Shown here piece after piece: positions 11,325 to 28,019 of a DNA stretch of 32,000 nucleotides. Source of the DNA: Nitratidesulfovibrio vulgaris str. Hildenborough (GTDB lineage Bacteria; Desulfobacterota; Desulfovibrionia; Desulfovibrionales; Desulfovibrionaceae). The translations under genes and the position numbers were made by a program. The stretch lies in the NCBI RefSeq assembly GCF_000195755.1, contig NC_002937.3, forward strand, positions 2,790,001-2,822,000, written 5' to 3'. How positions within the stretch are numbered: the first letter of the stretch is position 1; each line of letters opens with the position of its first letter. A model generated the notes under the pieces. The model was not told the origin of the DNA, did no database searches, and was given only the letters and a program-made list of their open reading frames with translations.

Positions 11325-13520
11325 ATGGCAAAGACGCCTGACGCATACACCACGCAAGAGTTGGTGCCGCTGCTGGGTATACAAACCCGTGCTGTTCAGA
11401 TTCGCGCCAAGCGAGAAGGCTGGGCCTCTCGCCCCCGCAAGGGGCGTGGCGGCGGCAACGAGTGGCTTGTGGCGTCCATGCCCCGCGCAACCCGCGAGGC
11501 CATCGCAGACGGCCTTCTGCGCACATCGGCCCCCGCATCGCTTCCCGCGACTTCGGCCCCTGCCGAGACCCGCCCGGCCCTGCCGCCCATCGACCCGGCA
11601 GACCCTCGCCGGGGCATCGTGGCCCGCATGGCGTCGCTTTCGGGCTACACCCAGCGCCAGCGCGAAGTGGCCTTCGCCCGGCTGGCCTTCATCCGCGAGA
11701 TTGAGCGTCTTTCGGTGCTCACCGGCGTGGAGGCCGCCATCAACAAACTGGTGCAGGACGCTGGCGACGGCGCGCTGCCCCCGCATCTGATGGACTTGGT
11801 GCGGGCAGCCAACGACCGTTACGGCGACGGCGGCAAGCGCGGCCTGTCGCGGCGCAGACTGTATGCGTGGCGGGCGGGCTACTTGGCCATGGGTGAAGAG
11901 GCACTGGTGCCCAAGCACGCCACGCCCGACCTCTCTGTGCCACCGTGGGCGGACGCCTTCATGACCCTGTTCCAGCGGCCGCAGAAGCCGTCCATCGCAC
12001 GGGCGCACCGTGACCTGTGCAAGGCTTACGCGACCGGTGAATTGGGTGAACTAGCGGGACCGCCGCCCTCCATCCACGCCGTGCGGCGGTGGGTGGCCAA
12101 GGTGGCGCGGCCCGACCTTGAGCGTGGACGCAAGACCGGCAACGCGCTGCTCAAGATGCAGCCGCACCAGCGGCGGTCTACGGCGCACATGCTGCCGGGC
12201 GACTGCTACACGGCGGACGGCACCACCTTCGACGCCGAGATACGCGACCCGTACAACGGCAAGCCGATGAAGCCCGAAATCACGCTGGTTCTGGACGTGG
12301 CCACGCGCCGTTGCGTGGGCGTGTCACTGAACTACGCGGAGAACGCACAGGGGGTGCTCGACGCCCTGCGCATGGCCTGCCTGTATGGCGGCGTGCCCGC
12401 CATGTTCTATTCGGACAACGGCCCCGGCTACGACAACCGCCTGCTGAACGCCCCCGGCACGGGGATGCTGGCGCGCCTTGGCATAGAGCGGCGTGCCTCC
12501 ATTCCCGGCAGACCGCAGGGCAAGGGCCTGATGGAACGCGCGGTGAAGACCATCTGCGAACCCGTGGCGAAGGCCATGCCCACATGCTCGCACCGCGACA
12601 TGGACGGCGACGCGGCCAAGAAGGTCTACAAGATTACCCGCGCCGACCTGAAACGCGGCGGGCGTTCGCCGCTGCTGCCCACGTGGGAGCAGTTCAAGAC
12701 GGCCATGCTTGAGCGCATCGTCGAGTACAACACCACTCCGCACCGGTCGTTGCCCGTCATCACCGACGAGAACGGCCGACGCCGCCACATGTCGCCGGAT
12801 GATGCGTGGAAGTACCACGAGGACAACGGCTGGCGGCCCGTGAGCGTACCGGCGGACATTTCCCATGAGGAGTTCATGCCCGCAGAACGCCGCATCGTGC
12901 GCACCGGCGAAGTGCGCTTCGGCGGTGGCGTGTACTTCTCGCACGACCTTGCCCCGTACCACGGCGACGCGGTGATGGTGCGTTACGACGTGTGGGACGC
13001 CTCGCGTGTCTATGTGTGGACGATGGATGGCCGCCGCATCTGCGAGGCCGTTCTGGACGCCAACAGCACGCCATACTTCCAGCAGAGCCAGATAGATGCG
13101 GCCCGTGAAAAGCGCGAGCAGGCGCAGTTGAAGCGCCTTGAACGCAAGGCGGCCGCCATCGCCCCCGGTTCATTCCTCACCGTGGCCACCGGCCGCACCC
13201 GTGAAACCCCGCTCATGGCCGACAGTCTCGCGCCCCGCGACCAGCTTCCGGCGCAAGAGACAGCCGCCGCCCCCGTCACCGTGGACGTGACCCCCCTTCG
13301 CCCCCAGACCACCGAACCGGAACGCCGCCCCTGCTTCGCGCACGCGCATGAGCGTTACGAATGGCTGATGCACCACAAGGACCGCTGGCTGGACAAGGAC
13401 GAACCTTGGCTGCGCCGCCATGTGGACACCATCGACTACGCCGACAACCACGAACGCTACGTGCATGAAGGCATCGCATGGCCGGGCTGGAAGGCCGAAA
13501 CCGACAGCGAAAAGGATTAG
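11325..13520 (+). CDS. MuA-like DDE transposase
   Basis: 731 aa. N-terminal Mu-type HTH (TTQELVPLLGIQTRAVQIRAKREGW). DDE/rve core (LVLDVATRR, FYSDNGPGY, RPQGKGLMERAV). Size and position match Mu A. Confidence 0.92.
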   Translation: MAKTPDAYTTQELVPLLGIQTRAVQIRAKREGWASRPRKGRGGGNEWLVASMPRATREAIADGLLRTSAPASLPATSAPAETRPALPPIDPADPRRGIVARMASLSGYTQRQREVAFARLAFIREIERLSVLTGVEAAINKLVQDAGDGALPPHLMDLVRAANDRYGDGGKRGLSRRRLYAWRAGYLAMGEEALVPKHATPDLSVPPWADAFMTLFQRPQKPSIARAHRDLCKAYATGELGELAGPPPSIHAVRRWVAKVARPDLERGRKTGNALLKMQPHQRRSTAHMLPGDCYTADGTTFDAEIRDPYNGKPMKPEITLVLDVATRRCVGVSLNYAENAQGVLDALRMACLYGGVPAMFYSDNGPGYDNRLLNAPGTGMLARLGIERRASIPGRPQGKGLMERAVKTICEPVAKAMPTCSHRDMDGDAAKKVYKITRADLKRGGRSPLLPTWEQFKTAMLERIVEYNTTPHRSLPVITDENGRRRHMSPDDAWKYHEDNGWRPVSVPADISHEEFMPAERRIVRTGEVRFGGGVYFSHDLAPYHGDAVMVRYDVWDASRVYVWTMDGRRICEAVLDANSTPYFQQSQIDAAREKREQAQLKRLERKAAAIAPGSFLTVATGRTRETPLMADSLAPRDQLPAQETAAAPVTVDVTPLRPQTTEPERRPCFAHAHERYEWLMHHKDRWLDKDEPWLRRHVDTIDYADNHERYVHEGIAWPGWKAETDSEKD

Positions 13521-13528
13521 GAGACGCC

Positions 13529-14314
13529 ATGTTAAAGCAATTCGTCAGAACGGAGAACTACACGCGCTTCACGGCGGGCATTCAGGCCGTGGAACAGCGG
13601 GGCGCGGCCGAGGCGGGCATGATGCTCGTCCACGGTGCGCCGGGCTTCGGCAAAAGCCACATCGTCTACCATTGGGCCATAGAGGCCGGGGCCGTGTTCC
13701 TGCGGGCCAACGTGGACTGGACGCCCAAGTACTTCCTCGTGGAACTGGCCAAGGAACTGCGCATCGACCCGCGCGGCACGGCGCAGCAACTGTTCGGCCG
13801 CCTGCTTGAGCATGTGGTGGAGACACAGGCCCCGCTGGTCATCGACGAGGCCGAGTTCACCCTGCACCAGAACGCCGCCGTGCTGGAGAAGATACGCGAC
13901 CTTTCCGACCGCGCCGAAGTGACCGTGGTGCTCATAGGCATGGAGCGCATCCAGCAGAACATCGCCCGCCACAAGCAAATCAACAGCCGCATCGCACAGG
14001 TGGTGGAGTTCAAGCCCGCCACGCTGTCCGACGTGACCCATGCCTGCGCGCAACTGGCAGAGGTGCGGCTGACGCCCGAACTGGTGGGCGAAGTGCACCG
14101 CCTCTCCGGCGGCAGGATGCGCGAGGTGCTGAACATCATCGCCGCCATAGAGCGCGTGGCGAAGGTGAACGAACTGACCGAAGTGGGCATGGCCGATGTG
14201 TCCGGGGTGCCCCTGTCCTATGACTGGCAGGCCCACACCCCGCGCATGGTCGCCACGGGCAGGCAGACGGGGCGTGCATCCCGCGCCACGGCACAGGTGG
14301 CAGGGGGGCGTTAG
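13529..14314 (+). CDS. MuB-like AAA+ ATPase (DNA transposition / target-capture protein)
   Basis: Walker A GAPGFGKS and Walker B LVIDEAE, directly after the transposase. ATG 13529 with AGGAG upstream; the raw ORF start at 13478 overlaps the transposase. Confidence 0.88.
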   Translation: MLKQFVRTENYTRFTAGIQAVEQRGAAEAGMMLVHGAPGFGKSHIVYHWAIEAGAVFLRANVDWTPKYFLVELAKELRIDPRGTAQQLFGRLLEHVVETQAPLVIDEAEFTLHQNAAVLEKIRDLSDRAEVTVVLIGMERIQQNIARHKQINSRIAQVVEFKPATLSDVTHACAQLAEVRLTPELVGEVHRLSGGRMREVLNIIAAIERVAKVNELTEVGMADVSGVPLSYDWQAHTPRMVATGRQTGRASRATAQVAGGR

Positions 14315-15957: not shown

Positions 15958-15968
15958 CGACCTGACTT

Positions 15969-16033
15969 GCGAAACCGCCCCCATGCGGGGCGGTCGTCGG
16001 AGCGTGGCGGCTCCGGCCTGACGAGCAGCCGAA
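15969..16033 (+). repeat. Structured intergenic repeat, copy 1 (65 nt, two hairpins)
   Basis: GCGAAACCGCCCCCATGCGGGGCGGTCGTCGGAGCGTGGCGGCTCCGGCCTGACGAGCAGCCGAA. Hairpin 1 is ACCGCCCC/GGGGCGGT. Hairpin 2 is CGGAGC-GTGGCG-GCTCCG (15998-16015). Confidence 0.9.
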
Positions 16034-16042
16034 GGAAGAGAA

Positions 16043-16282
16043 ATGACGGTAATTAGCTCACACCTGTCTGTGGCGATTGACTACCTCTTGGATGAATCCG
16101 CTTTTCCTGATGAGAGGTTGGCGGGGAAGTTCCTGCGGGACGGCGTCCCGATGAGTGCAGAGGAGGTTCGCGAGTACCTTCGCGAGGAGAAGGCGGCAGG
16201 GAAGAAGCTTTTTCCTCTCAAGCCCTGTGACCGATTCGACCCCTATGAAAAGGGGTGCCTTGGGCACGAAGTAGAAGCGTAG
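16043..16282 (+). CDS. Hypothetical 79-aa protein, lower-GC cargo bracketed by the structured repeat
   Basis: GAAGGAAG SD upstream of ATG 16043. The 5' half is visibly AT-richer than the neighbouring genes. Acidic product, no motif recognised. Confidence 0.55.
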   Translation: MTVISSHLSVAIDYLLDESAFPDERLAGKFLRDGVPMSAEEVREYLREEKAAGKKLFPLKPCDRFDPYEKGCLGHEVEA

Positions 16283-16348
16283 CGAAACCGCCCCCCCATG
16301 CGGGGCGGTCGTCCGGCGGTGGCGCGCCGGGCCTGACGAGCAGCCGAA
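16282..16348 (+). repeat. Structured intergenic repeat, copy 2 (67 nt)
   Basis: GCGAAACCGCCCCCCCATGCGGGGCGGTCGTCCGGCGGTGGCGCGCCGGGCCTGACGAGCAGCCGAA. Hairpin 2 is CCGGCG-GTGGCG-CGCCGG (16313-16330), with the same loop as copy 1 and four compensatory stem pairs. Confidence 0.9.
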
Positions 16349-16363
16349 CAATGCAAGGTGAAC

Positions 16364-16798
16364 ATGGCAGAACAGCGCAAGAAAACAGCCTCGCTTTTGC
16401 TGTCTGTAGACGGCAATCCCCCTGTGAGTCTGGAATGCTTCCCGGCGGAACAATGGCCCGCCGCAGGAGGTGCGCCGGGCCTTTTCCGGGTGCGCCAGGG
16501 CGGCAAGTGGCTGCGGGGGCATGGCGGCGAGAAGTACCACTTCATGACGCCCGAAGCCCTTGGCGGCCACATGGCCCAACTCCTGTGCGGGCATGAACCC
16601 GCCCCGGCCCCTGACCTGCCGGTGGGGACGCCGGTCCGCGTGCCCAATGGCAACACCTTCGCCGGGCTTCCCCTGTACGACGCCACGCGCACGGCCACGC
16701 CTCCGTTCCAAGCGGCGGACGGTCGCTGGCATGTGCATGTCCTGCTGTACGGGCGAGGGCTTGTGGCCGTGCCCTGCGACACCCTGAAACACCGTTGA
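16364..16798 (+). CDS. Hypothetical early protein (144 aa)
   Basis: ATG 16364 with AAGG 5 nt upstream; the raw ORF begins at a GTG at 16358. No motif recognised. Confidence 0.55.
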   Translation: MAEQRKKTASLLLSVDGNPPVSLECFPAEQWPAAGGAPGLFRVRQGGKWLRGHGGEKYHFMTPEALGGHMAQLLCGHEPAPAPDLPVGTPVRVPNGNTFAGLPLYDATRTATPPFQAADGRWHVHVLLYGRGLVAVPCDTLKHR

Positions 16799-16806
16799 GG
16801 TGCCCC

Positions 16807-17223
16807 ATGCGTGAAGAATCGCGTGCCTCCCTGCTGGCCAAGCTGCATATAGCCAAGAAAGACCTTGGCCTTACGGACGACATCTACCGCGACATGCTGG
16901 AAGGCGTGACGGGCAAGCGTTCCGGTGCCGACCTGTCGGTGAAGGAACTGGTGGCCGTGATAGCCGAACTGCGGGCCAAAGGGTGGCAACCCAAGAGCAC
17001 CCCGCGCTACGGGCGCAAGCCCAAGGTACGGGGAGCGGCCAAGCCCCAGCTTGCCAAGGTGGAGGCATTGCTTGCCGACAATGGCAGGCCGTGGGCCTAC
17101 GCTGAAGGCATCGCCAAGCGGATGTACGGTGTGGAGAAGCTTGAATGGTGCGACGAGGCGCAGATTTCCGGCGTCATGGTGGCACTGGTGAAGGACGCCC
17201 GCCGCCGCAAGGGGAAGGCATGA
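16807..17223 (+). CDS. GemA / Mu gp16-like regulatory protein (DUF1018 type)
   Basis: LLAKLHIAKKDLGLTDDIYRDMLEGVTGKRSGADLSVKELVAVIAELRAKGW is the characteristic gp16/GemA N-terminal signature. Position upstream of mor, as in Mu-like phages. Confidence 0.8.
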   Translation: MREESRASLLAKLHIAKKDLGLTDDIYRDMLEGVTGKRSGADLSVKELVAVIAELRAKGWQPKSTPRYGRKPKVRGAAKPQLAKVEALLADNGRPWAYAEGIAKRMYGVEKLEWCDEAQISGVMVALVKDARRRKGKA

Positions 17224-17708
17224 GCGCAAGCATGAACCTTCTGCCGGGTATGCCGTCGCGCCCTGCATTGTCCGAAGCCGCCTTGCCTGCGGCAGCCCGC
17301 GAGATAGCGGCGCTGGTGGGGCTACCCAAGACCCTGCAACTGGTGGAACGCCTTGGTGGCACGACGTTCCCCGTGCCCAAACGCGCCACCAAGGTGGGCG
17401 AACTGCGCTACTTCATGCTTGCCGACGTGGTGGGGGTGGAGGCGGCCGACCTGTTGTGCAGACACTACGGCGGAACCAACCTGTACGTGCCCCGTTGTGC
17501 CGAAGCCCTACGCAAGGCGCGTGATGCGGAAATCGTGGCGACCTTCGACCGTGAGACGAAAGAGAAGAGTGCTAGCGCGGTTGTCGCGGAACTCGCCTTG
17601 CGGTATAGGCTGTCCGACAGGCGTATATGGCTGATACTCAAAGAGGTCCCTGTCCTCGCCGTCATGGAACACATCAACCCCGCCCGCAGGCAAGGGCGGC
17701 TGTTGTAG
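17220..17708 (+). CDS. Mor/C-family transcriptional activator (middle/late gene activator)
   Basis: 162 aa. C-terminal HTH AELALRYRLSDRRIWLILKE and core LLCRHYGGTNLYVP are typical of the Mor family. The ATGA start overlaps the GemA stop. Confidence 0.8.
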   Translation: MSASMNLLPGMPSRPALSEAALPAAAREIAALVGLPKTLQLVERLGGTTFPVPKRATKVGELRYFMLADVVGVEAADLLCRHYGGTNLYVPRCAEALRKARDAEIVATFDRETKEKSASAVVAELALRYRLSDRRIWLILKEVPVLAVMEHINPARRQGRLL

Positions 17709-17720
17709 AGGAGTAGCGAA

Positions 17721-18059
17721 GTGGTACGTTTATTTGCCCTTGTACTTCTATTGGTTACAATGCCCACGCTTGCTTTTGCAGATGATGCAGAGAGAGTAGA
17801 AAAACACAAAATCGGTGCCATGAAGGGTGACTACCAAGACCAACGCAACCTTGCTTATACTCTTTCAACGTCCAGTGACCCCTTCGTCGAGAACAAGATG
17901 CTCGGCTGCGCTTGGCGCAAGTTGATACTTCTTTCGGGAAGTCAACGAATCGATGCTACTGACATACAGAACGAAAAGTTCTATTGCGGCAAGCTCTCCC
18001 CTGAAGAACAGGCTGTCGCAACAAAGCAGGCAGAGCGCCTCTATAAAGAAATATACTAG
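17721..18059 (+). CDS. Secreted small protein (112 aa), lower-GC moron after mor
   Basis: GTG start with AGAGGAG 7 nt upstream. Signal peptide VRLFALVLLLVTMPTLAFA|DD. Two Cys residues. About 43% GC in its first 60 nt by hand count, against a GC-rich backbone. Confidence 0.7.
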   Translation: MVRLFALVLLLVTMPTLAFADDAERVEKHKIGAMKGDYQDQRNLAYTLSTSSDPFVENKMLGCAWRKLILLSGSQRIDATDIQNEKFYCGKLSPEEQAVATKQAERLYKEIY

Positions 18060-18082
18060 CCACTGAACCCCTTCAACCTGTC
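18060..18082 (+). repeat. Conserved 23-nt box, copy A (CCACTGAACCCCTTCAACCTGTC)
   Basis: 21/23 identical to 26806-26828, including a 15-nt exact run. It lies upstream of the lysis cassette, the Plys position in Mu. Confidence 0.85.
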
Positions 18083-18083
18083 A

Positions 18084-18130
18084 CCGCCCCCGGTCGCTGT
18101 CATTCTGACAGCGCCGGGGGCGGCCCCTTT
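18084..18130 (+). terminator. Strong rho-independent terminator after the mor-moron unit
   Basis: CCGCCCCCGG(T)CGCTGTCA-TTC-TGACAGCGCCGGGGGCGG (18 bp with a 1-nt bulge) followed by CCCCTTTT. Confidence 0.8.
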
Positions 18131-18171
18131 TCCGCCTCCTGCGTGACCTGAAACCACTAGGAGGCTTTCAC

Positions 18172-18534
18172 ATGCACATTCCCCGTTCAGTGCGCGCCGC
18201 CCGTCATGCACGGATGCTGTGGTGCGCGTTCATCGCTCTTCTGTTCCTGCTGGCCGTGGGCTGCATCGCCCCGCAACAGTTGCCCGTCATCCTGTACAAG
18301 GCGTCGCTCATCCTTCTGGCCGCCTTCACGGGTTACTGGATAGACCGTTGGGCCTTCCCCTACGCACGGCCCGACAGCTACCTCGTATCAGACTGGCGCA
18401 GGCAGCGCGGCTTTGTGCCGTGTGACGCCAATGACCCCATCGCGCGGGGCTATGCACGCATCTTCGCGGCCGCGCTGGTGCGCCGGGCCATCATCATGGG
18501 GGCGGCGATGCTGGCCGTGGGGCTGGGGCTGTGA
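18172..18534 (+). CDS. Putative holin (three predicted TM segments)
   Basis: 120 aa. Hydrophobic segments MLWCAFIALLFLLAVGCIA, ASLILLAAFTGYWI and AIIMGAAMLAVGLGL. TAGGAGG SD. It lies immediately upstream of, and overlapping, the endolysin gene. Confidence 0.45.
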   Translation: MHIPRSVRAARHARMLWCAFIALLFLLAVGCIAPQQLPVILYKASLILLAAFTGYWIDRWAFPYARPDSYLVSDWRRQRGFVPCDANDPIARGYARIFAAALVRRAIIMGAAMLAVGLGL

Positions 18535-19181
18535 TGAAGGCGCGTTCTTACCCCGTATTGCCCCCCTGCATGGGCTGTTGCCTGTTGTTGCTGGCCCTCA
18601 TGTGGACGGCAGCCGCCCACTCCGCCCCGGCTATCCCCATGCAGGCCATCCAGTACCGTTCTCAACTCATGCGCGAGGCCCGCGCACAGTGGGGGCTTTC
18701 TGCCCCCACGGCCACCTTCGCGGCGCAAGTGCATCAGGAAAGCGGCTGGAACGCCGACGCCGTGTCACCCGTGGGCGCGCAGGGGCTGGCGCAGTTCATG
18801 CCGTCCACGGCGCGGTGGCTCCCAACGGTGGCCTCGGACACGGGCAAGCCCTTGCCGTTCAACCCCGGCTGGGCGTTGCGTGCCCTTGTCACCTATGACC
18901 GTTGGCTGTGGCAGCGGGTGCAGGCCGTCACGCCCTGCGACCGCATGGCCCTTGCCCTAGCCGCCTACAACGGCGGCCTCGGCTGGGTGCAGCGCGATGC
19001 CCGGCTTGCCGCCGCACGCGGGCTGGACGCCCGGCGGTGGTGGGACAACGTGGAGACCGTCAACGCCGGACGCTCCGCTAACGCCAAGCGCGAGAACCGG
19101 GGCTACCCCCGGCGCATCCTGCTGACCCTCGAACCCGCTTACATGGCGGCGGGCTGGGGCGGGGGCATGTGCCATGAGTAG
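18534..19181 (+). CDS. Endolysin, soluble lytic transglycosylase (SLT) domain with N-terminal signal/SAR sequence
   Basis: The catalytic-Glu motif QVHQESGWNADAVSPVGAQGLAQFMPSTA is the SLT signature. N-terminal hydrophobic region CCLLLLALMWTAAAHSA. The ATG at 18534 overlaps the upstream TGA. Confidence 0.85.
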   Translation: MKARSYPVLPPCMGCCLLLLALMWTAAAHSAPAIPMQAIQYRSQLMREARAQWGLSAPTATFAAQVHQESGWNADAVSPVGAQGLAQFMPSTARWLPTVASDTGKPLPFNPGWALRALVTYDRWLWQRVQAVTPCDRMALALAAYNGGLGWVQRDARLAAARGLDARRWWDNVETVNAGRSANAKRENRGYPRRILLTLEPAYMAAGWGGGMCHE

Positions 19182-20328: not shown

Positions 20329-20847
20329 ATGGCGCATGATGAAGCCACCCGCCGGGCGGCGCGTTCCGCCTACGCCTATGACCAGTTGCCGCTGGAACGG
20401 GCCGCCGCCAAGGCGGGGGTGCCCGCGTCCACCCTCGCGCGCTGGAAGCGCGAGGCCAAGGCCGAAGGTGACGACTGGGACAAGGTGCGCGCCGCCAACG
20501 CGCTGGCTTCGGGCGGGGTCGAAGACGTGGCCCGGCAGATGCTCACCGACTACGTGGTGCAGCACAAGACGCTGATAGACCACCTGCGCGACGAGACCAC
20601 GGGCGAACGGATGTCCCCGCGCGACAAGGCCGACATCCTCGCCAGCCTTGCCGACAGCTTCAACAAGACCGTGGCCGCCTGCCGCCGGGTCATGCCCGAG
20701 ACCAACGAACTGGCCGTGGCCCTTGAAGTGCTGGGCCTGCTTGGCGACTACGTGCGCGAACACTTCCCCGGTCATGCCCCGGCCCTGCTCGAAGTGCTCG
20801 AACCCTTCGGCTACGAGCTTTCCAAGCATTACGGGGGCAAGGCATGA
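20329..20847 (+). CDS. Mu gp27-like protein (DUF1804; putative small terminase subunit)
   Basis: MAHDEATRRAARSAYAYDQLPLERAAAKAGVPASTLARWKREAKAEGDDWDK is the typical gp27/DUF1804 N-terminus. It lies directly upstream of the large terminase. Confidence 0.8.
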   Translation: MAHDEATRRAARSAYAYDQLPLERAAAKAGVPASTLARWKREAKAEGDDWDKVRAANALASGGVEDVARQMLTDYVVQHKTLIDHLRDETTGERMSPRDKADILASLADSFNKTVAACRRVMPETNELAVALEVLGLLGDYVREHFPGHAPALLEVLEPFGYELSKHYGGKA

Positions 20848-22520
20848 AGATAGCCCCCAAGCTCACCCGGCGCGAGTTCCTGCTTTCGCTGGCCGAGCTT
20901 TCCGCCACCTTGCGCCAGCAGATAGAGGCCGAATGCGAAGGCTTCGCGGCAGACCCGGAAGCCAGTGCCAAACGTCGCGCACAAGCACAGGACGACTTCA
21001 CCTACTTCAGGCGCACCTACTTCCCGCATTATGTGCGGGCTACGGCCACGACAGGCGGCGGCGATTCGGTCTTGCACCGCTGGCTGGACGCCGAACTGCC
21101 CAGCATGGTGGCAAGCCCTGCCGGGGTGAAGCTGGCGGTGGCCGCCCCGCGTGGCGAGGCCAAGTCCACCTATGTGGCGCTGTTCTTCGTGCTGTGGTGC
21201 GTGGCCACGGGCCGCAAGCACTACATATTGCTGATTGCCGACGCCCTGACACAGGCCGCCGCGCTGCTTGAGGCAGTGAAGGCCGAACTTGAGGCCAACC
21301 CGCGCCTTGGCATGGACTTTCCCGAGGCCACGGGCCGGGGTCGCATCTGGAACGAGGTCACCACGGTGACGGCGGGCAACATCAAGTTGCAGGCCCTTGG
21401 CGCGGGCAAGCGTATGCGCGGCCTGCGGCACGGCCCGCACCGCCCCGACCTGTGCATCCTCGACGACCTTGAGAACGACGAGAACGTGCAGAAGCCCGAA
21501 CAGCGCGACAAGCTTGAAGCATGGCTGCAACGCACCGTGCTGTCGCTTGGCCCGGCCGACGACAGCATGGACGTGGTGTATGTGGGCACCATCCTGCATT
21601 ACGACAGCGTGCTGGCCCGCACCCTGAAGAAACCCCTGTGGCGCTCAAGGGCGTTCCGGGCCGTGCTGGCGTGGCCGCACCGCATGGACCTGTGGGACAG
21701 GTGGGAGGCCATCCTCCACGGCGAAGGGGCAGAGGCGGCGCGGGCCTTCCACACGGCCCATGCCGACGACATGGCCCAAGGGGCAGAGGTCTCATGGCCC
21801 GCCATGCGCCCCCTGTACAAGCTGATGGAGAAGCGCGCCGAAGACCACGCCGCCTTCGACGCCGAACAGCAGAACGACCCCCTTTCCGGCGACGACGCCC
21901 CCTTTGCCACCTGCATCACCTTCTGGGTGGACCGCCGAGCCGACTGGCTGTTCTTCGGCGCAGTGGACCCTTCATTGGGCAAGCACGGCGCAGGGCGCGA
22001 CCCTTCCGCCATCCTTGTGGGCGGTTTCCACCGGGCCACCATGACGCTGGACGTGGTGGAGGCCCTCATCCGCAAGCGGCACCCCGACCGCATCATTGAA
22101 GACGTCATCGCCGCCCATGCCGAATACCGCTGCCTGATGTGGGGCGTGGAGGCCGTGCAGTTTCAAGAGTTCTTCGCGCACGTGCTGGCCCAGCGCGCCC
22201 TTGAACGGGGCATGGCCATGCCGGTGCGTCCCGTGGTGAACGGCACCGACAAGCAGCTGCGCATCGAGACCTTGCAACCCTACATGGTGCAGGGCCGCAT
22301 ACGCCTGCACCCCTCACAGGCCACGCTGGTTGACCAGTTGCGCCATTTCCCCAAGGCCGACCACGACGACGGGCCGGACGCGCTAGAGATGCTGTGGCGC
22401 ATGGCTACGGGCGGCTTCGTCAGCCTGCGCGACGCCTTCATCCCCGTACCGCGCACCCATTCCTTCAGGGCCACGGCCCCCGACGCATTCGACGAGGAGG
22501 CAGACCATGTATTCTATTGA
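20844..22520 (+). CDS. Terminase large subunit (Mu gp28-like)
   Basis: 558 aa. Walker A-like PRGEAKS, Walker B-like LCILDDLEND, and a C-terminal nuclease region with HDDGPDALEM. Position matches Mu gp28. Confidence 0.88.
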   Translation: MKIAPKLTRREFLLSLAELSATLRQQIEAECEGFAADPEASAKRRAQAQDDFTYFRRTYFPHYVRATATTGGGDSVLHRWLDAELPSMVASPAGVKLAVAAPRGEAKSTYVALFFVLWCVATGRKHYILLIADALTQAAALLEAVKAELEANPRLGMDFPEATGRGRIWNEVTTVTAGNIKLQALGAGKRMRGLRHGPHRPDLCILDDLENDENVQKPEQRDKLEAWLQRTVLSLGPADDSMDVVYVGTILHYDSVLARTLKKPLWRSRAFRAVLAWPHRMDLWDRWEAILHGEGAEAARAFHTAHADDMAQGAEVSWPAMRPLYKLMEKRAEDHAAFDAEQQNDPLSGDDAPFATCITFWVDRRADWLFFGAVDPSLGKHGAGRDPSAILVGGFHRATMTLDVVEALIRKRHPDRIIEDVIAAHAEYRCLMWGVEAVQFQEFFAHVLAQRALERGMAMPVRPVVNGTDKQLRIETLQPYMVQGRIRLHPSQATLVDQLRHFPKADHDDGPDALEMLWRMATGGFVSLRDAFIPVPRTHSFRATAPDAFDEEADHVFY

Positions 22521-24225
22521 CGACATGCTGCGCACGGCGCGCGGCTTCGTCCATTCGTTTCTGGCTTCGGGCGGGGTGCAGACCCGAGACGGCGACAGGG
22601 CCGAGGCCACGGCCAACCTGTACTGGGAGCGTTGGGGCAACGCCGTGGACGGCCTCACCCCCGCGCGGCTGCGCAGCATCCTGCAAGCGGCGGACGACGG
22701 CGACATCCTGCGCCAGCACCTGCTCTTCGCCGACATGGAGGACAGGTGCGACCATCTGGCGGCGGAACTGTCGAAGCGCAAACGGGCCTTGCTGACCCTC
22801 GACTGGGAGATACTGCCGGGCCGCGCCGCAGACGCCAAGGCACAGCGCGTGGCCGATGCCGTGCGCGAACAGTTCGACGCGCTGGCCAACATCGAAGACC
22901 TCATGCTGGACATGGCCGACGGCATAGGCCACGGCTTCGCCGCCTTGGAGATACAGTGGGGGCGCGAAGGACGCACCCACCTGCCGCAGGCGTTCCACTT
23001 CAGGCCACAGGCATGGTTCCAGACCGCGCCAGAAGACCGCAACGCCCTGCGCCTGCGCGACGGCACGGCCGAAGGGGCCACCCTGCAACCCTTCGGCTGG
23101 GTGCTGCACACCCACCGCAGCCGTTCGGGCTGGCTGCCCCGCGCCGGGCTGTTCCGCGTGCTGGCATGGTCGTACCTCATCCGGGCCTACGCCCTTGCCG
23201 CCAACGCCTCCTATGTGGAGGTGCACGGTCTGCCGTTCCGCCTTGGCAAATACCCGCAGGGCAGCAACGAAGAAGACAAGGCGGCCCTGCGGCGCGCCTT
23301 GCAGTGCCTTGGCCGCGATGCTTCGGGCATCATCCCGCAGGGGATGGACATCATCTTCCAGACGCCCGCCAACAGCACGCACGACCACTTCGGCACGCTC
23401 ATTGCCCGGTGCGAACAGGGCATGAGCAAGGCCATCTTGGGCGGCACGCTGACCAGTCAGGCCGACGGCAAGACCAGCACCAACGCCCTTGGCAACATCC
23501 ATAACGAGATGCGGCACGACCTGCTGGTGTCGGACGCCTTGCAGATTGCGGGCACGCTGTCCCGGCAGGTGCTGGCCCCGCTGGCCATCCTGAACGAGGG
23601 CGTGGCCGATGCCCGGTTTCTGCCGTGGTTCCGCTTCGACACGCGCGAGGCCGAAGACCTTTCGACCTACGCCGATGCGTTGCCCAAGCTGGCGGGTGTG
23701 ATGCGCATCCCCGCCCGCTGGGCGCATGAGAAGCTGAAGATACCGCAACCCGAAGGGGATGAAGAGGTGCTGCGCGTGCCCGATGCCCTTGGCGGGCCGC
23801 GTGACGCGAACGCGGGGCCGGGGCCTAAAGGTGGCGCACCTACAGGCCAAGGTGAGGGTGCGGGCGAAGACGCGGCGCTCACGGCGGCCCTTGCGGCGGT
23901 CTCTGCCCCAACGACTGACCATGACGCTGGCCCTGAATCTGGCCCTGACGCTGGCCATGACGCTGCCCCTGAACCGGATGCAGACTTTCCCGACCAGCAG
24001 GCCGTGGACGCCATCGACCTGCCCGACGCGACCTTGCAGGCCGCCATGGAAGAACTGCTGGCCCCGCTCATGGCAGAACTCCAGCAAGGCACGGAACCGG
24101 GTGAACTGCTGGCGCGACTCGGGGAACTGTACCCCACGATGCCGGGCCGCAATCTGGAAGAACTGCTGGCGCGGGCGCTGTTCGTCAGCGAGGTGTGGGG
24201 GCGCGTGAGCGCCGCAGGTGAATAG
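22507..24225 (+). CDS. Portal protein (Mu gp29-like, DUF935)
   Basis: 572 aa. Its position after the terminase and the conserved-looking N-terminal and central regions (DGDILRQHLLFADMEDRCDHL...) are typical of the Mu gp29 family. GGAGGAGG SD. Confidence 0.85.
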   Translation: MYSIDDMLRTARGFVHSFLASGGVQTRDGDRAEATANLYWERWGNAVDGLTPARLRSILQAADDGDILRQHLLFADMEDRCDHLAAELSKRKRALLTLDWEILPGRAADAKAQRVADAVREQFDALANIEDLMLDMADGIGHGFAALEIQWGREGRTHLPQAFHFRPQAWFQTAPEDRNALRLRDGTAEGATLQPFGWVLHTHRSRSGWLPRAGLFRVLAWSYLIRAYALAANASYVEVHGLPFRLGKYPQGSNEEDKAALRRALQCLGRDASGIIPQGMDIIFQTPANSTHDHFGTLIARCEQGMSKAILGGTLTSQADGKTSTNALGNIHNEMRHDLLVSDALQIAGTLSRQVLAPLAILNEGVADARFLPWFRFDTREAEDLSTYADALPKLAGVMRIPARWAHEKLKIPQPEGDEEVLRVPDALGGPRDANAGPGPKGGAPTGQGEGAGEDAALTAALAAVSAPTTDHDAGPESGPDAGHDAAPEPDADFPDQQAVDAIDLPDATLQAAMEELLAPLMAELQQGTEPGELLARLGELYPTMPGRNLEELLARALFVSEVWGRVSAAGE

Positions 24226-25490: not shown

Positions 25491-25642
25491 AGATAGCAGA
25501 GAGACACAACACATACGCAGGGCGGTGGAGGGGCCTGCCACCCGCCGAAGCGGAAACCCCACAATGCGCTCCGGGCTATGCCCGTGCTACGGCCGGCAGA
25601 ATGTCACCGTGTCGCACCATCCCTGCAATGAGGAGACTAGCC

Positions 25643-26265: not shown

Positions 26266-26802
26266 ATGTCAGCGAAAGTCGTTCAAGAAAATCTTGGTGA
26301 TGCAGTTATTTCTGCTATAGTCCAATTTGCCAGAAAGGATATTAAGACTGTTGCTCAAATCGAGGACGTTCTTGATCATATATCTAATGCAAATAAGAGA
26401 TATGTAATTGCATTAGCAATTTATGGAGCTCGCTGGATATACAAACTTCAGCTGGTTACCTTGACTTCAAACGAAGAACAAATAGCCCATGTCAGGGCAC
26501 AAATATCAGAATACGGCTCTTCATGTGAAGCTATTCTTTTAAATATGGCATGTGATGATGGCTTTAAGTATTCAGGAATCCCAAAGTTTTACCATGTCAT
26601 TAGATATTGCAAATCCAAAAGAATAATAAATGCTAGTTTATCTAATAAGCTTCACACTCTGCGCATGTGGAGAAATGAAATCCACATGGAAATTCGGACT
26701 TCTCCAAAATATCTCGACTATTCAAAGCAAGCATATAGTATTTTGCAAGAGGTAATAATCCAGACAAGACGCTGGAAATCTGTGCCAATCAAAACCCTTT
26801 AG
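26266..26802 (+). CDS. AT-rich orphan protein (178 aa) inserted between G and I; function unknown
   Basis: GGAAGGTG SD 5 nt upstream of the ATG. About 38% GC in the first 60 nt by hand count, against GC-rich flanks. Helix-rich looking, with no TM or signal peptide. Contains LHTLRMWRNEIHME, a possible HEPN-like R-x-H element. Confidence 0.75.
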   Translation: MSAKVVQENLGDAVISAIVQFARKDIKTVAQIEDVLDHISNANKRYVIALAIYGARWIYKLQLVTLTSNEEQIAHVRAQISEYGSSCEAILLNMACDDGFKYSGIPKFYHVIRYCKSKRIINASLSNKLHTLRMWRNEIHMEIRTSPKYLDYSKQAYSILQEVIIQTRRWKSVPIKTL

Positions 26803-26805
26803 TAC

Positions 26806-26828
26806 CCACTGAACCCCTTCCATCTGTC
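26806..26828 (+). repeat. Conserved 23-nt box, copy B (CCACTGAACCCCTTCCATCTGTC)
   Basis: 21/23 identical to 18060-18082. It lies upstream of the protease/scaffold gene, the PI position in Mu. Confidence 0.85.
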
Positions 26829-26837
26829 TTCCCTCTC

Positions 26838-26860
26838 ATGCCCCCGTATACCGGGGGCAT
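26838..26860 (+). other. GC hairpin overlapping the start codon of gene I
   Basis: ATGCCCCCG-TATAC-CGGGGGCAT (9-bp stem). The right arm contains the GGGGG SD-like run and the AT of ATG 26859. No T-tract follows. Confidence 0.6.
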
Positions 26861-28019
26861 GTCGCATTTCAAGCCCTCGCGCACAGCGCATCATCCCACC
26901 GCCGCACTGACCGTGCCGGTCTGCCTTTCGCAAGAAGGGGCTGCCGGTCTGCCCGCCGGGCTGAACGTGCAACTCTTCCCCGAAGGCACGTTCGCCGCCC
27001 GTGATGGACGCCCCGCCACCATGACAGGTGGCGCCCTCGCCGCATGGCGCATGGACGCGGACATCGCCGCCGCCATCATCGCGGCGGTGGCCTCCCGCGA
27101 GACGCCGCTCGTCATCGACTATGAGCACCAGTCGCTGAACGCTCGTCAGAACGGCCAGCCCGCCCCGGCGGCCGGATGGGTCGAATCCGTGGCCTTCGTG
27201 CCCGGTCGCGGCCTGTTCGCCGCCGTGTCGTGGACGGAACGCGCCCGCGCCTACATCGAAGCGGGCGAATACCGCTTCATCTCCCCCGTCTTCACCTTCG
27301 ACGCCACCACCGGCGCGGTGCAGGCCCTTGCCAGCGCCGCCCTCACCAACACCCCGGCCCTCGACGGCATGGAGGCCGTCGCGGCTGTGGAAGACCCCAC
27401 AACACAGGAGACCGCAATGGACGAATTGCTGGAGCGCCTGCGCTGGATGCTGAACCTGCCCGTGACAGCCACGGCGGGCGAGGTCATCGCGCAACTGGAC
27501 AAACTGAAGGGGATGCTGGCCCCCGGTGCGGAGGGCGAAGCCGCCGCCACGGCCGACCCCGTGGACCTTGTGGCGCTGCTCACGGAACAGCGCGAGCAGA
27601 TAGCCACGCTGACCACGCAGACCACCACGCCCGACCCGGCACGCTTCGCGCCCGTGGCCGCACTCACCGCCCTGCAACAGAGCAACACGGCCTTGCAGGC
27701 CCGCGTGGCGGAACTGGAGGCCGGGCACGAACTGGCAGCCCTCACGGCGGAGATCGACGCCGCACTGGCCGACGGCCGCCTGAACAAGGCCGTGGAACCG
27801 TGGGCGCGCGAACTGGCCAAGACCGATGCCGCAGCCCTGCGCACCTACCTTGCCGCCGCCGTACCCGTGGCCGCGCTCACCCACATGCAGACCGGGGGCG
27901 TCACCCCGGCGGGGGCGCAGCCCGGCACGGCCGCCCTCACTGAAGAAGCCCGCTACGTCATCAACCAGTTGGGAATCACCCCCGAAGAATACCGCGCCGC
28001 CAACGGCGAGGAGGCATAG
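26859..28019 (+). CDS. Head protease / scaffold (Mu I-like)
   Basis: VQLFPEGTFAARDGRP...PLVIDYEHQSL...YRFISPVF is the Mu-like prophage I protease signature. The C-terminal half is Ala/Leu/Glu-rich and coiled (scaffold). Start is ATG 26859 or 26838. Confidence 0.85.
   Translation: MSHFKPSRTAHHPTAALTVPVCLSQEGAAGLPAGLNVQLFPEGTFAARDGRPATMTGGALAAWRMDADIAAAIIAAVASRETPLVIDYEHQSLNARQNGQPAPAAGWVESVAFVPGRGLFAAVSWTERARAYIEAGEYRFISPVFTFDATTGAVQALASAALTNTPALDGMEAVAAVEDPTTQETAMDELLERLRWMLNLPVTATAGEVIAQLDKLKGMLAPGAEGEAAATADPVDLVALLTEQREQIATLTTQTTTPDPARFAPVAALTALQQSNTALQARVAELEAGHELAALTAEIDAALADGRLNKAVEPWARELAKTDAAALRTYLAAAVPVAALTHMQTGGVTPAGAQPGTAALTEEARYVINQLGITPEEYRAANGEEA

What the first reader, a model, noticed from the sequence alone, without database searches (positions are those of the whole stretch)
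18060..18130. Conserved 23-nt box + GC hairpin found twice, exactly at the positions of the Mu Plys and PI late promoters
Seen: CCACTGAACCCCTTCAACCTGTC (18060-18082) and CCACTGAACCCCTTCCATCTGTC (26806-26828) are 21/23 identical, with a 15-nt exact run. Each is followed by a GC-rich inverted repeat containing GCCCCCG. The AT-rich loops (CATTCT at 18101-18106; TATACC at 26847-26852) begin exactly 18 nt after the box in both copies. Both copies also lie directly 3' of the two AT-rich morons.

By established knowledge, Mu late transcription starts at Plys (before lys), PI (before I), PP and Pmom, and is activated by a Mor/C-family protein bound just upstream of a weak -10. This window would therefore be expected to hold exactly two such promoters, at exactly these two places.

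Inference (a): the box is the binding site of the 17220-17708 activator and the loop hexamers are the -10 elements, so the hairpins are terminator-promoter overlaps that insulate successive operons.

Inference (b): the box is a shared 3' boundary of a mobile moron cassette.

Tension for (a): the predicted TSS at copy B would fall at or near the ATG of gene I, giving a leaderless mRNA or requiring a different start.
Basis: partly seen in the sequence, partly recalled or inferred. Interest (0 to 1): 0.65.

Follow-up and report, generated by a model that had tools for sequence, protein, structure and literature searches.

The report
Late promoters of a Mu-like prophage
The repeated 23-base box marks two activator-dependent late promoters of a Mu-like prophage; this is a known kind of switch, but it uses a recognition sequence different from phage Mu's that is conserved in Mu-like phages of very distant bacteria.

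Summary
The box is at 18060-18082 and 26806-26828 (21/23 identical, 15-nt exact core). In both copies an 18-nt C-rich spacer follows, then an A/T-rich hexamer at the tip of a GC-rich hairpin. A 15-nt repeat alone is not rare in this window; the significance comes from comparison.

- The same core sits at the same operon boundaries in Mu-like prophages of Desulfovibrionaceae, Enterobacteriaceae (including E. coli), Neisseriales and, as TTGAACCCCTTC, Pseudomonas phage JBD24.
- It contains a dyad, CTGAA-N4-TTCA. Its centre lies 31 nt before the hexamer, exactly as in Mu Pmom (centre at -43.5).
- Half-sites change in mirror fashion between clades and co-vary with the recognition helix of the adjacent Mor/C-family activator (17220-17708).
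- A matrix trained only on distant relatives ranks the two window sites first and second.
- A predicted third copy lies before the baseplate genes of the same prophage, outside the window.
- Relatives without inserted genes keep the box, so it is not a cassette boundary.

Gene I probably starts at 26859 on a leaderless mRNA. The hairpins probably insulate the late operons from upstream transcription. No transcription or binding data exist. Verdict: new member of a known kind; moderate interest.

The parts
17220..17708 (+). Gene for the Mor/C-family late activator. It follows the GemA gene directly. Its recognition helix reads LSDRRIWLILK and its C-terminus QGRLL resembles a clamp-binding motif.
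   Evidence: Pfam Mor PF08765, E = 5.6e-15. phrog_836 'late transcriptional activator', E = 9e-39. A subfamily profile hits Mu activator C (PDB 9l0x), E = 3.5e-5. Alignment.
17721..18059 (+). Low-GC ORF of 112 aa with a signal-peptide-like N-terminus. It is the last gene before the first late promoter, and its stop codon abuts the box.
   Evidence: phrog_5882, E = 1.5e-47. Homologues of 30-38% identity end 0-2 nt before the box in Trabulsiella, Kosakonia and Martelella prophages.
18060..18082 (+). Box A: operator of the lysis-operon late promoter, predicted positions -53 to -31.
   Evidence: Top hit in the window (28.0 bits) for a matrix trained on non-Desulfovibrionaceae sites.
18063..18076 (+). 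Dyad CTGAA-CCCC-TTCAA within box A. Its centre at 18069|18070 is predicted to be -43.5.
   Evidence: 31 nt from centre to hexamer, as in Mu Pmom. Mirrored half-site variants in relatives.
18084..18123 (+). GC-rich hairpin A of 18 pairs, with the -10 hexamer at its apex, followed by CCCCTTTTCC (T-tract 18128-18131). Probable terminator or insulator for the early operon.
   Evidence: -39.5 kcal/mol, z = -7.6. Equivalent hairpins with T-runs in Desulfovibrionaceae relatives.
18101..18106 (+). Predicted -10 hexamer CATTCT of promoter A. The predicted start site is about 18110-18113.
   Evidence: Column profile of 67 sites: A at hexamer position 2 in 44/67 and T at position 6 in 40/67.
18134..18165 (+). 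Leader hairpin pairing CCUCC (18135-18139) with the Shine-Dalgarno GGAGG (18160-18164) of the holin gene.
   Evidence: Fold of 18060-18175. Similar pairing in L082 and L099.
18172..18534 (+). Holin gene, first gene of the lysis/head late operon.
   Evidence: Pfam Holin_2-3, E = 1.5e-45.
26266..26802 (+). Low-GC cargo ORF of 178 aa in the G-I gap. This is the position of the anti-CRISPR locus in Pseudomonas phage JBD24.
   Evidence: phrog_35412. No Pfam, PADLOC or NCBIfam family. Found only in this prophage context. JBD24 annotation.
26806..26828 (+). Box B: operator of the gene I late promoter, predicted positions -53 to -31. Dyad 26809-26822, centre 26815|26816.
   Evidence: Second hit in the window (19.8 bits) for the independent matrix.
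26837..26861 (+). GC-rich hairpin B, CATGCCCCCG/CGGGGGCATG. The -10 hexamer is in its loop and the gene I ATG in its 3' arm.
   Evidence: -20.3 kcal/mol, z = -5.6. Equivalent hairpins have z < -2 in 21 of 29 relatives.
26847..26852 (+). Predicted -10 hexamer TATACC of promoter B. It is weak because it lacks the final T.
   Evidence: Fixed offset of +41 from the box start, as in all relatives.
26859..28019 (+). Gene I (head protease/scaffold), with the start revised to ATG 26859. This ATG is the predicted +1, giving a leaderless mRNA.
   Evidence: Pfam Mu-like_Pro, E = 1.5e-105. Conserved ATG 42-45 nt from the dyad centre. No Shine-Dalgarno core in 33 of 34 such starts.

Best explanation
The two boxes are the operators of two activator-dependent late promoters of a Mu-like prophage. 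They are the equivalents of Mu Plys (before the holin/lysis/head-packaging operon) and Mu PI (before the protease-scaffold and capsid genes).

Proposed mechanism:
- The Mor/C-family protein encoded at 17220-17708 is made at the end of the early operon.
- It binds the imperfect dyad CTGAA-N4-TTCA inside the box, centred at about -43.5, with flanking contacts covering about -53 to -31.
- It recruits host sigma-70 RNA polymerase to a weak -10 hexamer 31 nt downstream of the dyad centre. There is no usable -35 element.
- At the first promoter, transcription would start near 18110-18113 and give a 59-62-nt leader.
- At the second, it would start at the A of the ATG at 26859 and give a leaderless gene I mRNA.

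The GC-rich hairpin that brackets each -10 hexamer is a separate, superimposed element. It forms only in RNA that arrives from upstream, because the late transcript starts inside or after its 3' arm. It would stop or blunt read-through from the preceding operon and from cargo genes inserted just upstream.

What is shown: the sequence, position, geometry, conservation, co-variation and family membership of the activator. What is inferred: activator binding, the start sites, leaderless translation and hairpin function.
For: 1. Recurrent position. In 1.57 Mb of related loci the core occurs before the lysis genes (downstream of GemA-Mor), between G and I, and between the gp45-like and gp46-like baseplate genes. 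It is always on the coding strand.
2. Named systems. Phage JBD24 has TTGAACCCCTTCC before gp21 and before the protease gene. An E. coli prophage has three copies at the three operon boundaries.
3. Geometry. There are 31 nt from the dyad centre to the hexamer, identical to Mu Pmom. This matches published Mor/C architecture: dyad centred at -43.5, footprint -30 to -55, a -10 but no -35 (PMC2582627, PMC4287176).
4. Unbiased set upstream of all gene I homologues. Half-sites change in mirror fashion: CTGAA..TTCAG, CTGAC..GTCAG, CGGAA..TTCCG and AGGAC..GTCCT. The centre lies 42-45 nt from the ATG.
5. Protein-DNA co-variation. TGA half-sites go with ..R-x-(V/I)-W, and GGA half-sites with ..R-x-(I/V)-R. 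That residue aligns with Mu C Y115, a major-groove residue whose mutation nearly abolishes activation (bioRxiv 10.1101/2025.05.02.651988).
6. Independent prediction. A matrix trained only on non-Desulfovibrionaceae sites ranks 18060 and 26806 first and second in the window. It also picks the expected sites in JBD24 and the E. coli prophage.
7. A predicted third copy was found in the same prophage beyond the window (L115 18999).
8. -10 profile. A at hexamer position 2 in 44/67 sites and T at position 6 in 40/67.
9. Leaderless reading. The ATG lies 6-8 nt after the hexamer in 34 of 34 curated sites, and 1 of 34 has a Shine-Dalgarno core against 42 of 68 controls.
10. Hairpins. z < -2 in 17 of 19 lysis-class, 21 of 29 gene I-class and 8 of 8 baseplate-class sites. 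Arms differ in sequence between clades, and T-runs follow the lysis-class stems.
Against: - There are no transcription start, footprint or reporter data for this phage or any box-carrying relative in what I could search.
- The -10 of promoter B (TATACC) lacks the highly conserved final T. Several relatives have poor hexamers unless a 1-nt shift is allowed.
- The box is only an imperfect dyad (CTGAA/TTCAA in copy A, CTGAA/TTCCA in copy B).
- Co-variation between helix and half-site has exceptions (L064, L024). It is also confounded by phylogeny, because the GGA/R group is mostly Nitrosomonadaceae and their neighbours.
- Hairpin B and its relatives have no U-tract, so canonical intrinsic termination is doubtful there.
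- A matrix hit of similar score (28551, 19.6 bits) lies inside gene T and is probably not a promoter. The matrix alone is therefore not fully specific.
- Part of my site collection was selected with a pattern containing the core, which inflates the conservation of those columns.
Confidence: 0.85

Rival explanations
1. The box is the conserved boundary or recombination site of mobile cargo ('moron') cassettes. It marks where foreign genes are joined to the phage backbone and is not a transcription signal.
For: - In this prophage all three boxes are preceded by low-GC inserts.
- Stop codons of upstream genes often abut the box within 0-4 nt.
- The G-I gap carries different 1-1.5-kb inserts in at least nine relatives, the anti-CRISPR locus in JBD24 and another cargo gene in RS138.
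- As the only near-identical non-coding sequence shared by diverged phages, the box could serve as a crossover point.
Against: - Relatives with no insert keep the box. G ends 66-185 nt upstream in L089, L006, L057, L058, L076, L069, L079 and L073.
- The third insert is on the opposite strand, so the box abuts its 5' end.
- The exact 178-aa ORF is found only in this prophage context.
- The ORF at 17721-18059 is a conserved resident of that position in distant prophages.
- A boundary role would not explain the fixed distance to a -10 hexamer and a start codon, the dyad with mirrored variants, or the co-variation with the activator.
Confidence: 0.05
2. The box is bound by a different factor (a repressor, a Ner-like protein, IHF or a host regulator), or it acts in RNA. 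An example would be an antitermination or processing signal in read-through transcripts. The Mor-family protein would then act elsewhere.
For: No binding data exist. The box is transcribed in any read-through RNA from upstream. Its asymmetric flanks (CCA......CCTGTC) are conserved beyond the dyad.
Against: - The geometry equals that of experimentally defined Mor/C sites.
- Half-site changes are mirrored on the two DNA halves, which fits a symmetric DNA-binding protein and not an RNA signal.
- The half-site co-varies with the residue equivalent to Mu C Y115.
- The 26-bp footprint of the tetrameric activator reported for Mu would account for the conserved flanks.
- Rfam finds nothing at either site.
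Confidence: 0.07
3. The hairpins are not terminators or insulators. They act at the DNA level, for example by extruding so that the -10 hexamer is exposed as a single-stranded loop, or they stabilise the 3' end of the upstream mRNA.
For: - In the gene I and baseplate classes no U-tract follows the stem, because coding starts at once.
- The hexamer sits in the loop in most GC-rich hosts.
- The discriminator (GGCGGC, GGGGGC) is very GC-rich, so melting should be hard.
Against: - The register of the hairpin relative to the box differs between clades. It lies around the hexamer in Desulfovibrionaceae, between box and hexamer in Aquitalea, and after the hexamer in Enterobacteriaceae. This argues against a fixed role in polymerase recognition.
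- Lysis-class stems are followed by T-runs, like ordinary terminators.
- Published work shows that cargo transcription interferes with downstream late genes in JBD30 (PMC9410906), which gives insulation a rationale.
Confidence: 0.25
4. The repeat is a chance similarity between two intergenic regions.
For: 15-nt exact repeats are not rare in this window: about ten pairs, against a mean of 1.9 in shuffles.
Against: The downstream architecture is identical in both copies. The core is conserved in many phages of unrelated hosts. The independent matrix ranks the two sites first and second. A third copy was predicted and found.
Confidence: 0.01

Closest known systems
Phage Mu C-dependent late promoters (Plys, PI, PP, Pmom)
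   Same: - The activator belongs to the Mor/C family.
- The operator is a dyad centred at -43.5, with 31 nt from centre to -10, as measured on Pmom.
- There is a -10 hexamer but no proper -35, and a C-rich spacer.
- The locations match: before the lysis genes, before gene I and in the tail/baseplate region.
- The activator has a C-terminal Q-x-x-L-(F/L) clamp-binding-like motif.
   Different: - The operator sequence is CTGAA-N4-TTCA, not TTAT-N5-6-ATAA. Mu has no copy of the box.
- The recognition helix reads SDR-x-V-W where Mu C reads SQPQIY.
- There is one activator and a two-step cascade here, with no separate middle operon.
- Gene I appears leaderless here, whereas Mu gene I has a leader with a hairpin and a Shine-Dalgarno sequence.
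- The third promoter lies between the gp45-like and gp46-like genes.
Phage Mu middle promoter Pm (Mor-dependent)
   Same: - The activator gene follows gemA directly, as mor does in Mu.
- The dyad spans -51 to -36.
- By sequence inspection, the promoter lies next to a terminator-like hairpin with a T-run at the end of the early operon.
   Different: - In Mu the terminator-like dyad coincides with the Mor site itself.
- Here the hairpin brackets the -10 hexamer and start site, and the operator lies upstream of it.
- Pm drives the second activator, C. Only the two-activator clade (L083, L092, L093, L100) uses the box that way.
Pseudomonas transposable phages of the D3112/JBD/DMS3 group (Casadabanvirus): the G - anti-CRISPR - protease junction
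   Same: - Same activator subtype.
- Nearly the same operator (TTGAACCCCTTCC) at the same two places.
- Same layout of hexamer, ggcggc, then ATG.
- Cargo genes are inserted between G and the operator.
   Different: - These are siphovirus tails with only two detected sites, and the first half-site base differs (T for C).
- The cargo there is a characterised anti-CRISPR operon with its own promoter and repressor.
- The cargo here is an uncharacterised 178-aa ORF.
Leaderless phage mRNAs such as lambda cI from PRM (from my own knowledge)
   Same: Transcription is predicted to start at the A of the ATG, and no Shine-Dalgarno sequence is present.
   Different: Here the case rests only on sequence geometry. 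The genes concerned are late structural genes, not a repressor gene.

Membership tests
Mor/C-dependent (Mu-type) middle/late promoter | The phage encodes a Mor/C-family activator upstream of the promoters | tested here: met
   Pfam PF08765, E = 5.6e-15. phrog_836. A subfamily profile hits Mu C structures 9l0x and 9vw8, E = 3.5e-5.
Mor/C-dependent (Mu-type) middle/late promoter | Imperfect dyad-symmetric operator centred at about -43.5, overlapping the -35 region | tested here: met
   CTGAA-N4-TTCA, with 31 nt from centre to hexamer, equal to Pmom. Mirrored variants in relatives. This depends on the predicted -10; no start site has been mapped.
Mor/C-dependent (Mu-type) middle/late promoter | Recognisable -10 hexamer and no consensus -35 | tested here: met
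   Hexamers CATTCT and TATACC. The profile over 67 sites is T-A-n-n-n-T. The sigma-70 consensus scan does not call either site as a stand-alone promoter.
Mor/C-dependent (Mu-type) middle/late promoter | Position at the heads of the late operons (lysis, gene I, tail/baseplate) | tested here: met
Mor/C-dependent (Mu-type) middle/late promoter | Transcription depends on the activator, which binds the operator | not testable with these tools
   Only indirect evidence: co-variation of the half-site with the residue equivalent to C Y115.
MuC regulon in the strict sense | Operator matches TTAT-N5-6-ATAA | tested here: not met
   The box does not contain that motif. Conversely, Mu has no box; its best matches have 4 mismatches at unrelated places.
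Intrinsic (Rho-independent) terminator | GC-rich stem-loop | tested here: met
   Hairpin A: -39.5 kcal/mol. Hairpin B: -20.3 kcal/mol.
Intrinsic (Rho-independent) terminator | U-tract directly after the stem | tested here: inconclusive
   Hairpin A is followed by CCCCTTTTCC, with 4 T after a 4-nt gap, and is not called by the consensus scan. Relatives L082 and L099 have clear T-runs. Hairpin B is followed by coding sequence with no T-tract.
Leaderless mRNA | No Shine-Dalgarno sequence, and the start codon at the 5' end of the transcript | tested here: inconclusive
   No Shine-Dalgarno core in 33 of 34 such starts, against 42 of 68 controls that have one. The ATG lies 6-8 nt after the hexamer. 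The 5' end itself has not been mapped.
Mobile cassette boundary (attC-like or moron junction) | The element occurs only together with inserted cargo | tested here: not met
   The box is present in insert-free relatives. It is also present next to a reverse-strand insert.

The most novel reading that the evidence does not exclude
The box, hairpin and start codon form one compact module, conserved across Mu-like phages of several bacterial phyla. The order is operator, then a -10 hexamer presented inside a hairpin, then a leaderless ATG. Because the late transcript starts inside or after the hairpin, the module lets activator-driven transcription through. It terminates RNA arriving from upstream, or makes it untranslatable. 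This built-in insulation would make the DNA just upstream of each late promoter a safe harbour for cargo. That would explain why anti-CRISPR loci and other low-GC genes pile up exactly there. The box would then be a practical signpost for finding anti-defence and defence cargo in transposable phages.
Probability: 0.35. Interest if true: 0.6.

Novelty: new member of a known kind. Interest (0 to 1): 0.4.

Why it matters
- It annotates the late transcription units of an uncharacterised Mu-like prophage that is common in public assemblies; its proteins are listed in 72-109 blocks of the assembly collection.
- It corrects the start of gene I to 26859.
- It defines the operator of a large, previously unexamined subfamily of Mor/C activators: (C/T)TGAA-N4-TTC(A/C), with variants CTGAC and CGGAA. 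This subfamily includes the anti-CRISPR model phages of Pseudomonas and an E. coli prophage, so the predictions can be tested in tractable hosts.
- The paired changes in half-site and recognition helix (T with Trp, G with Arg at the position of Mu C Y115) offer a ready-made specificity-swap experiment for a family whose DNA recognition has only just been seen by cryo-EM.
- The constant placement of cargo genes immediately upstream of the operator gives a simple rule for locating accessory-gene islands in transposable phages.

Tried and rejected
- Near-identity DNA searches of both regions against 50,697 phage records found nothing. A protein search with the 178-aa ORF against the same records also found nothing.
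- I searched Mu itself for the box. It is absent, so the element is not a copy of Mu's own sites.
- Rfam has no family at either site.
- The sigma-70/terminator consensus scan calls neither site. This fits activator dependence but is uninformative otherwise.
- Literature string searches for the box and its Pseudomonas variant returned only unrelated primer matches. The D3112 and B3 genome papers are not held, so an earlier description of the motif cannot be excluded.
- PADLOC, NCBIfam and a permissive Pfam scan of the cargo ORFs gave nothing usable. The HEPN-like motif LRMWRNEIH therefore remains an untested lead.
- A single-sequence comparison of the activator with solved structures was marginal (E = 0.43). 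I replaced it with a profile search.
- I considered treating the matrix hit at 28551 as a fourth promoter. I rejected this because it lies inside gene T, is conserved as coding sequence in L001, and has no hexamer or hairpin.
- I did not run a formal base-pair covariation count on the hairpins. Loop lengths differ between clades, and any alignment would have had to be fitted to the structure. I used shuffle z-scores instead.
- I did not identify the host species. The nearest relatives are Bilophila and Desulfovibrio prophages, with at most 74% terminase identity.
Full report
**1. The observation**

The sequence is as described. CCACTGAACCCCTTCAACCTGTC lies at 18060-18082 and CCACTGAACCCCTTCCATCTGTC at 26806-26828. 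They are 21/23 identical with a 15-nt exact core, and that core occurs nowhere else in the window on either strand.

In both copies an 18-nt C-rich spacer follows. Then comes an A/T-rich hexamer (CATTCT at 18101-18106, TATACC at 26847-26852) at the tip of a GC-rich inverted repeat that contains GCCCCCG. Folded as single strands, the hairpins are far more stable than shuffled controls:
- 18084-18123: -39.5 kcal/mol, z = -7.6
- 26837-26861: -20.3 kcal/mol, z = -5.6

Both copies follow low-GC ORFs.

One caution applies. A 15-nt exact repeat is not rare in this GC-rich window. About ten independent pairs exist, against a mean of 1.9 in dinucleotide shuffles. The repeat alone proves little.

**2. 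The setting**

The window holds the left two thirds of a Mu-like prophage. The genes in order are:

| Coordinates | Gene |
|---|---|
| 11325-13520, 13478-14314 | probable transposition genes A and B, assigned by position and size only |
| 16795-17223 | GemA |
| 17220-17708 | Mor/C-family activator |
| 17721-18059 | small low-GC ORF |
| 18172-18534 | holin |
| 18531-19181 | SLT endolysin |
| 20844-22520 | large terminase, assigned by position and size |
| 22507-24225 | portal |
| 24228-25478 | F |
| 25601-26131 | G |
| 26266-26802 | low-GC ORF |
| 26838/26859-28019 | protease I |
| 28020-28949 | major head protein T |
| 30522-31943 | tail sheath |

There is one Mor/C-family gene and no separate middle operon. 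The nearest relatives are prophages of Bilophila and Desulfovibrio, with at most 74% terminase identity.

**3. Comparative evidence**

A scan of viral contigs for the 20 specified bases of the box gave 20 stretches, and several contigs carry two copies. In 80 related genome loci the 12-mer CCACTGAACCCC turned up in prophages of Aquitalea, Trabulsiella, Serratia, Kosakonia and Martelella. Allowing mismatches, it also appears in Undibacterium, Chromobacterium, Jeongeupia, Crenobacter and further Desulfovibrionaceae.

Classified by flanking genes, the sites fall into a few recurrent positions:
- GemA, Mor, (small ORF), box, then holin or lysis genes
- F, G, (0 to 1.5 kb of insert), box, then gene I
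- gp45-like gene, box, then gp46-like baseplate gene
- In Undibacterium, a site about 1.4 kb downstream of the homologue of window ORF 29290-29721; its downstream gene was not identified
- In a clade with two Mor-family genes, the exact box before the second activator and a variant before the lysis genes

In all classes the hexamer begins 41 or 42 nt after the box start.

**4. Comparison with Mu**

Mu itself has no copy of the box. Its C protein recognises TTAT-N5-6-ATAA (PMC12867686).

The architecture, however, is the same. Published work places the Mor and C dyads at -43.5, with footprints from about -30 to -55, a -10 hexamer and no proper -35 (PMC2582627; PMC4287176). The box contains the dyad CTGAA-CCCC-TTCA. 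The distance from its centre to the hexamer is 31 nt. I measured exactly this distance on Mu Pmom, between TTATGCC|CCAATAA and TAAGAT. The box therefore spans about -53 to -31. That fits the roughly 26-bp contact of the tetrameric activator seen by cryo-EM (bioRxiv 10.1101/2025.05.02.651988).

**5. An unbiased set and mirrored variants**

To avoid circularity I collected the DNA upstream of every gene I homologue, whether or not a box had been detected there. Nearly all carry a dyad whose centre lies 42-45 nt before the ATG. The half-sites change in mirror fashion between clades:
- CTGAA..TTCAG
- CTGAC..GTCAG (Bilophila L001, L050, L062, Ralstonia RS138)
- CGGAA..TTCCG (Nitrosomonadaceae)
- AGGAC..GTCCT (L020)

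Symmetric change on the two halves is what a site read by a symmetric protein should show.

**6. The activator**

BLAST does not link the window protein to Mu Mor or C, and a single-sequence search of the PDB is marginal. A profile of 25 subfamily members does find Mu activator C, with E = 3.5e-5. The match runs from the GG-x-x-LYIPR linker through the helix-turn-helix to the terminal Q-x-x-LF.

All box-carrying phages have (S/T)(D/E)R-x-(V/I/A)-W in the recognition helix, where Mu Mor has TFNTVY and Mu C has SQPQIY. Operators with a TGA half-site go with Trp at the last of these positions. Operators with a GGA half-site go with Arg. L064 and L024 are exceptions, and phylogeny is a confounder.

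That position aligns with C Y115, one of the residues reported to enter the major groove. Its mutation nearly abolishes activation.

The protein also ends in QGRLL, which resembles the C-terminal clamp-binding motif reported as general for the family.

**7. Independent prediction tests**

A weight matrix built only from sites outside the Desulfovibrionaceae ranks 18060 (28.0 bits) and 26806 (19.8 bits) first and second among all positions of the window, both strands. In Pseudomonas phage JBD24 it picks the sites before gp21 and before the protease gene. In an E. coli prophage it picks the three operon boundaries. In Mu it finds nothing sensible. A third window hit (28551, 19.6 bits) lies inside gene T, lacks a hexamer and hairpin, and is probably coding-driven.

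The same prophage, 100% identical over 11,422 nt, is present in a public assembly that extends further (L115). It has ACACTGAACCCCTTCCATCTGTC between the gp45-like and gp46-like genes. This is followed by an 18-nt C-rich spacer, TAGAGT in the loop of CCGCCAC/GTGGCGG, and then ggcggc-ATG. The position corresponds to about 39520 in window coordinates, outside the window.

**8. Gene I is probably leaderless**

In the gene I and baseplate classes, and at both JBD24 sites, the ATG lies 6-8 nt after the hexamer. The A of the ATG is thus the expected +1. Only 1 of 34 such starts has a Shine-Dalgarno core in the usual place, against 42 of 68 internal genes of the same loci.

In the window the conserved start is ATG 26859, not the upstream ATG 26838, which lies in the 5' arm of the hairpin. 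Mu differs: its gene I has a leader with a hairpin and a Shine-Dalgarno sequence. It remains an inference until 5' ends are mapped.

**9. The hairpins**

Hairpins overlapping the promoter are the rule. z is below -2 in 17 of 19 lysis-class, 21 of 29 gene I-class and 8 of 8 baseplate-class sites. The arm sequences differ between clades.

The register also differs:
- around the hexamer in Desulfovibrionaceae
- between box and hexamer in Aquitalea
- just after the hexamer in Enterobacteriaceae and the two-activator clade

This argues that the hairpin is not part of polymerase or activator recognition. It looks like a second function laid over the same DNA.

In every arrangement the predicted late transcript starts inside or beyond the hairpin, or else downstream of it. 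Only RNA coming from upstream contains the whole stem. For the lysis class the stems are long and are followed by T-runs, like ordinary terminators. The window copy has CCCCTTTTCC. For the gene I and baseplate classes no T-tract follows, so termination is doubtful there. In those cases the stem would at least bury the start codon of a Shine-Dalgarno-less gene in read-through RNA.

Published work on JBD30 records that strong transcription from the cargo locus interferes with the downstream late genes (PMC9410906). That gives insulation a rationale. I rate the insulator reading at roughly 0.55 for site A and 0.4 for site B. A DNA-level role for a -10 hexamer presented in a loop is not excluded.

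**10. The cargo genes and hypothesis (b)**

The association with low-GC DNA is real. All three boxes of this prophage are preceded by it. The G-I gap carries unrelated inserts of 1-1.5 kb in at least nine relatives. In JBD24 it carries the type I-E and I-F anti-CRISPR genes with their regulator, and in RS138 another cargo gene.

The box is nonetheless not a cassette boundary:
- Insert-free relatives keep it; G ends 66-185 nt upstream in eight loci.
- The third insert is a reverse-strand membrane-protein ORF, so the box abuts its 5' end.
- The exact 178-aa ORF occurs only in this prophage.
- The ORF at 17721-18059 has 30-38% homologues at the same spot in enterobacterial prophages.

The simplest reading is that cargo accumulates at the ends of operons, just upstream of an insulated promoter, because insertion there is harmless. 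A secondary role of the conserved box as a crossover point between diverged phages cannot be excluded.

**11. Novelty and verdict**

Activator-dependent late promoters of Mu have been known since the 1980s. A Mu-like prophage having them before the lysis genes and gene I is expected. What I could not find described is the operator of this large activator subfamily, its conservation across Desulfovibrionaceae, Enterobacteriaceae, Neisseriales and Pseudomonas phages, the leaderless layout, and the hairpin-embedded hexamer. I searched for the box as a literal string and by topic. The D3112 and B3 genome papers were not available.

I file the finding as a new member of a known kind, of moderate interest. 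It comes with a set of sharp predictions that can be tested in P. aeruginosa or E. coli.

Noticed in passing
window 15967-16034 and 16280-16349 (+): Two type II hammerhead ribozymes (Rfam RF02276; 72.3 and 64.2 bits against a gathering score of 37). They flank the small ORF 16043-16282 inside the early operon and correspond to the 56-nt direct repeat found.
   Followed up: no
window 18134-18165 (+): A hairpin in the holin leader pairs CCUCC (18135-18139) with the Shine-Dalgarno GGAGG (18160-18164) of the holin start at 18172. Similar anti-SD/SD pairing is visible in relatives L082 and L099. It could gate holin translation.
   Followed up: partly
window 17721-18059 (+): This low-GC ORF (112 aa, signal-peptide-like N-terminus, phrog_5882) is not a one-off insertion. 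Homologues of 30-38% identity occupy the same place in Trabulsiella, Kosakonia and Martelella prophages, with the stop codon 0-2 nt before the box. More distant ones occur in Rhizobium phage RR1-A and a Mannheimia Mu-like phage.
   Followed up: partly
window 26266-26802 (+): This 178-aa ORF (36-44% GC) occupies the G-I gap, which is the anti-CRISPR locus position in Pseudomonas phage JBD24. It contains LRMWRNEIH, which resembles an R-x(4-6)-H HEPN-type motif. It has no Pfam, PADLOC or NCBIfam match, and the exact protein is seen only in this prophage (72 blocks of public assemblies).
   Followed up: partly
window 17694-17708 (+), C-terminus of the activator: The activator ends in QGRLL. Nearly all subfamily members end in Q-x-x-L-(F/L), matching the C-terminal beta-clamp-binding motif recently shown to be needed for Mu C function (PMC12867686).
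   Followed up: partly
window 28551-28573 (+): A box-like sequence, CCCCTGAAGCCCATCATCTTTCA (19.6 bits), lies inside the major head gene T. It is conserved as coding sequence in Bilophila locus L001. No -10-like hexamer or hairpin follows, so it is probably not a promoter.
   Followed up: partly
window 26838 versus 26859: The longest ORF for gene I starts at ATG 26838, inside the 5' arm of the hairpin. Comparison with relatives points to ATG 26859 as the real start.
   Followed up: yes
L115 18530-18985 (-), about 39051-39506 in window coordinates, outside the window: A third low-GC insert (42% GC) encodes a 151-aa predicted membrane protein on the opposite strand. It lies directly upstream of the third box, before the gp46-like baseplate gene.
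   Followed up: partly
L083, L092, L093, L100 (viral contigs): A clade of Mu-like phages has two Mor-family genes in tandem. The exact box CCACTGAACCCCTTCAACCTGTC precedes the second activator, and a variant box CTGCTGAACCCCCTC precedes the lysis genes. This suggests a three-step cascade with two related specificities, as in Mu.
   Followed up: no
L101 (phage Mu) 17879-17880: Mu's strong gyrase site is annotated in the G-I gap, the same gap that holds cargo genes in this prophage and in the JBD phages. I did not examine whether a comparable site exists here.
   Followed up: no
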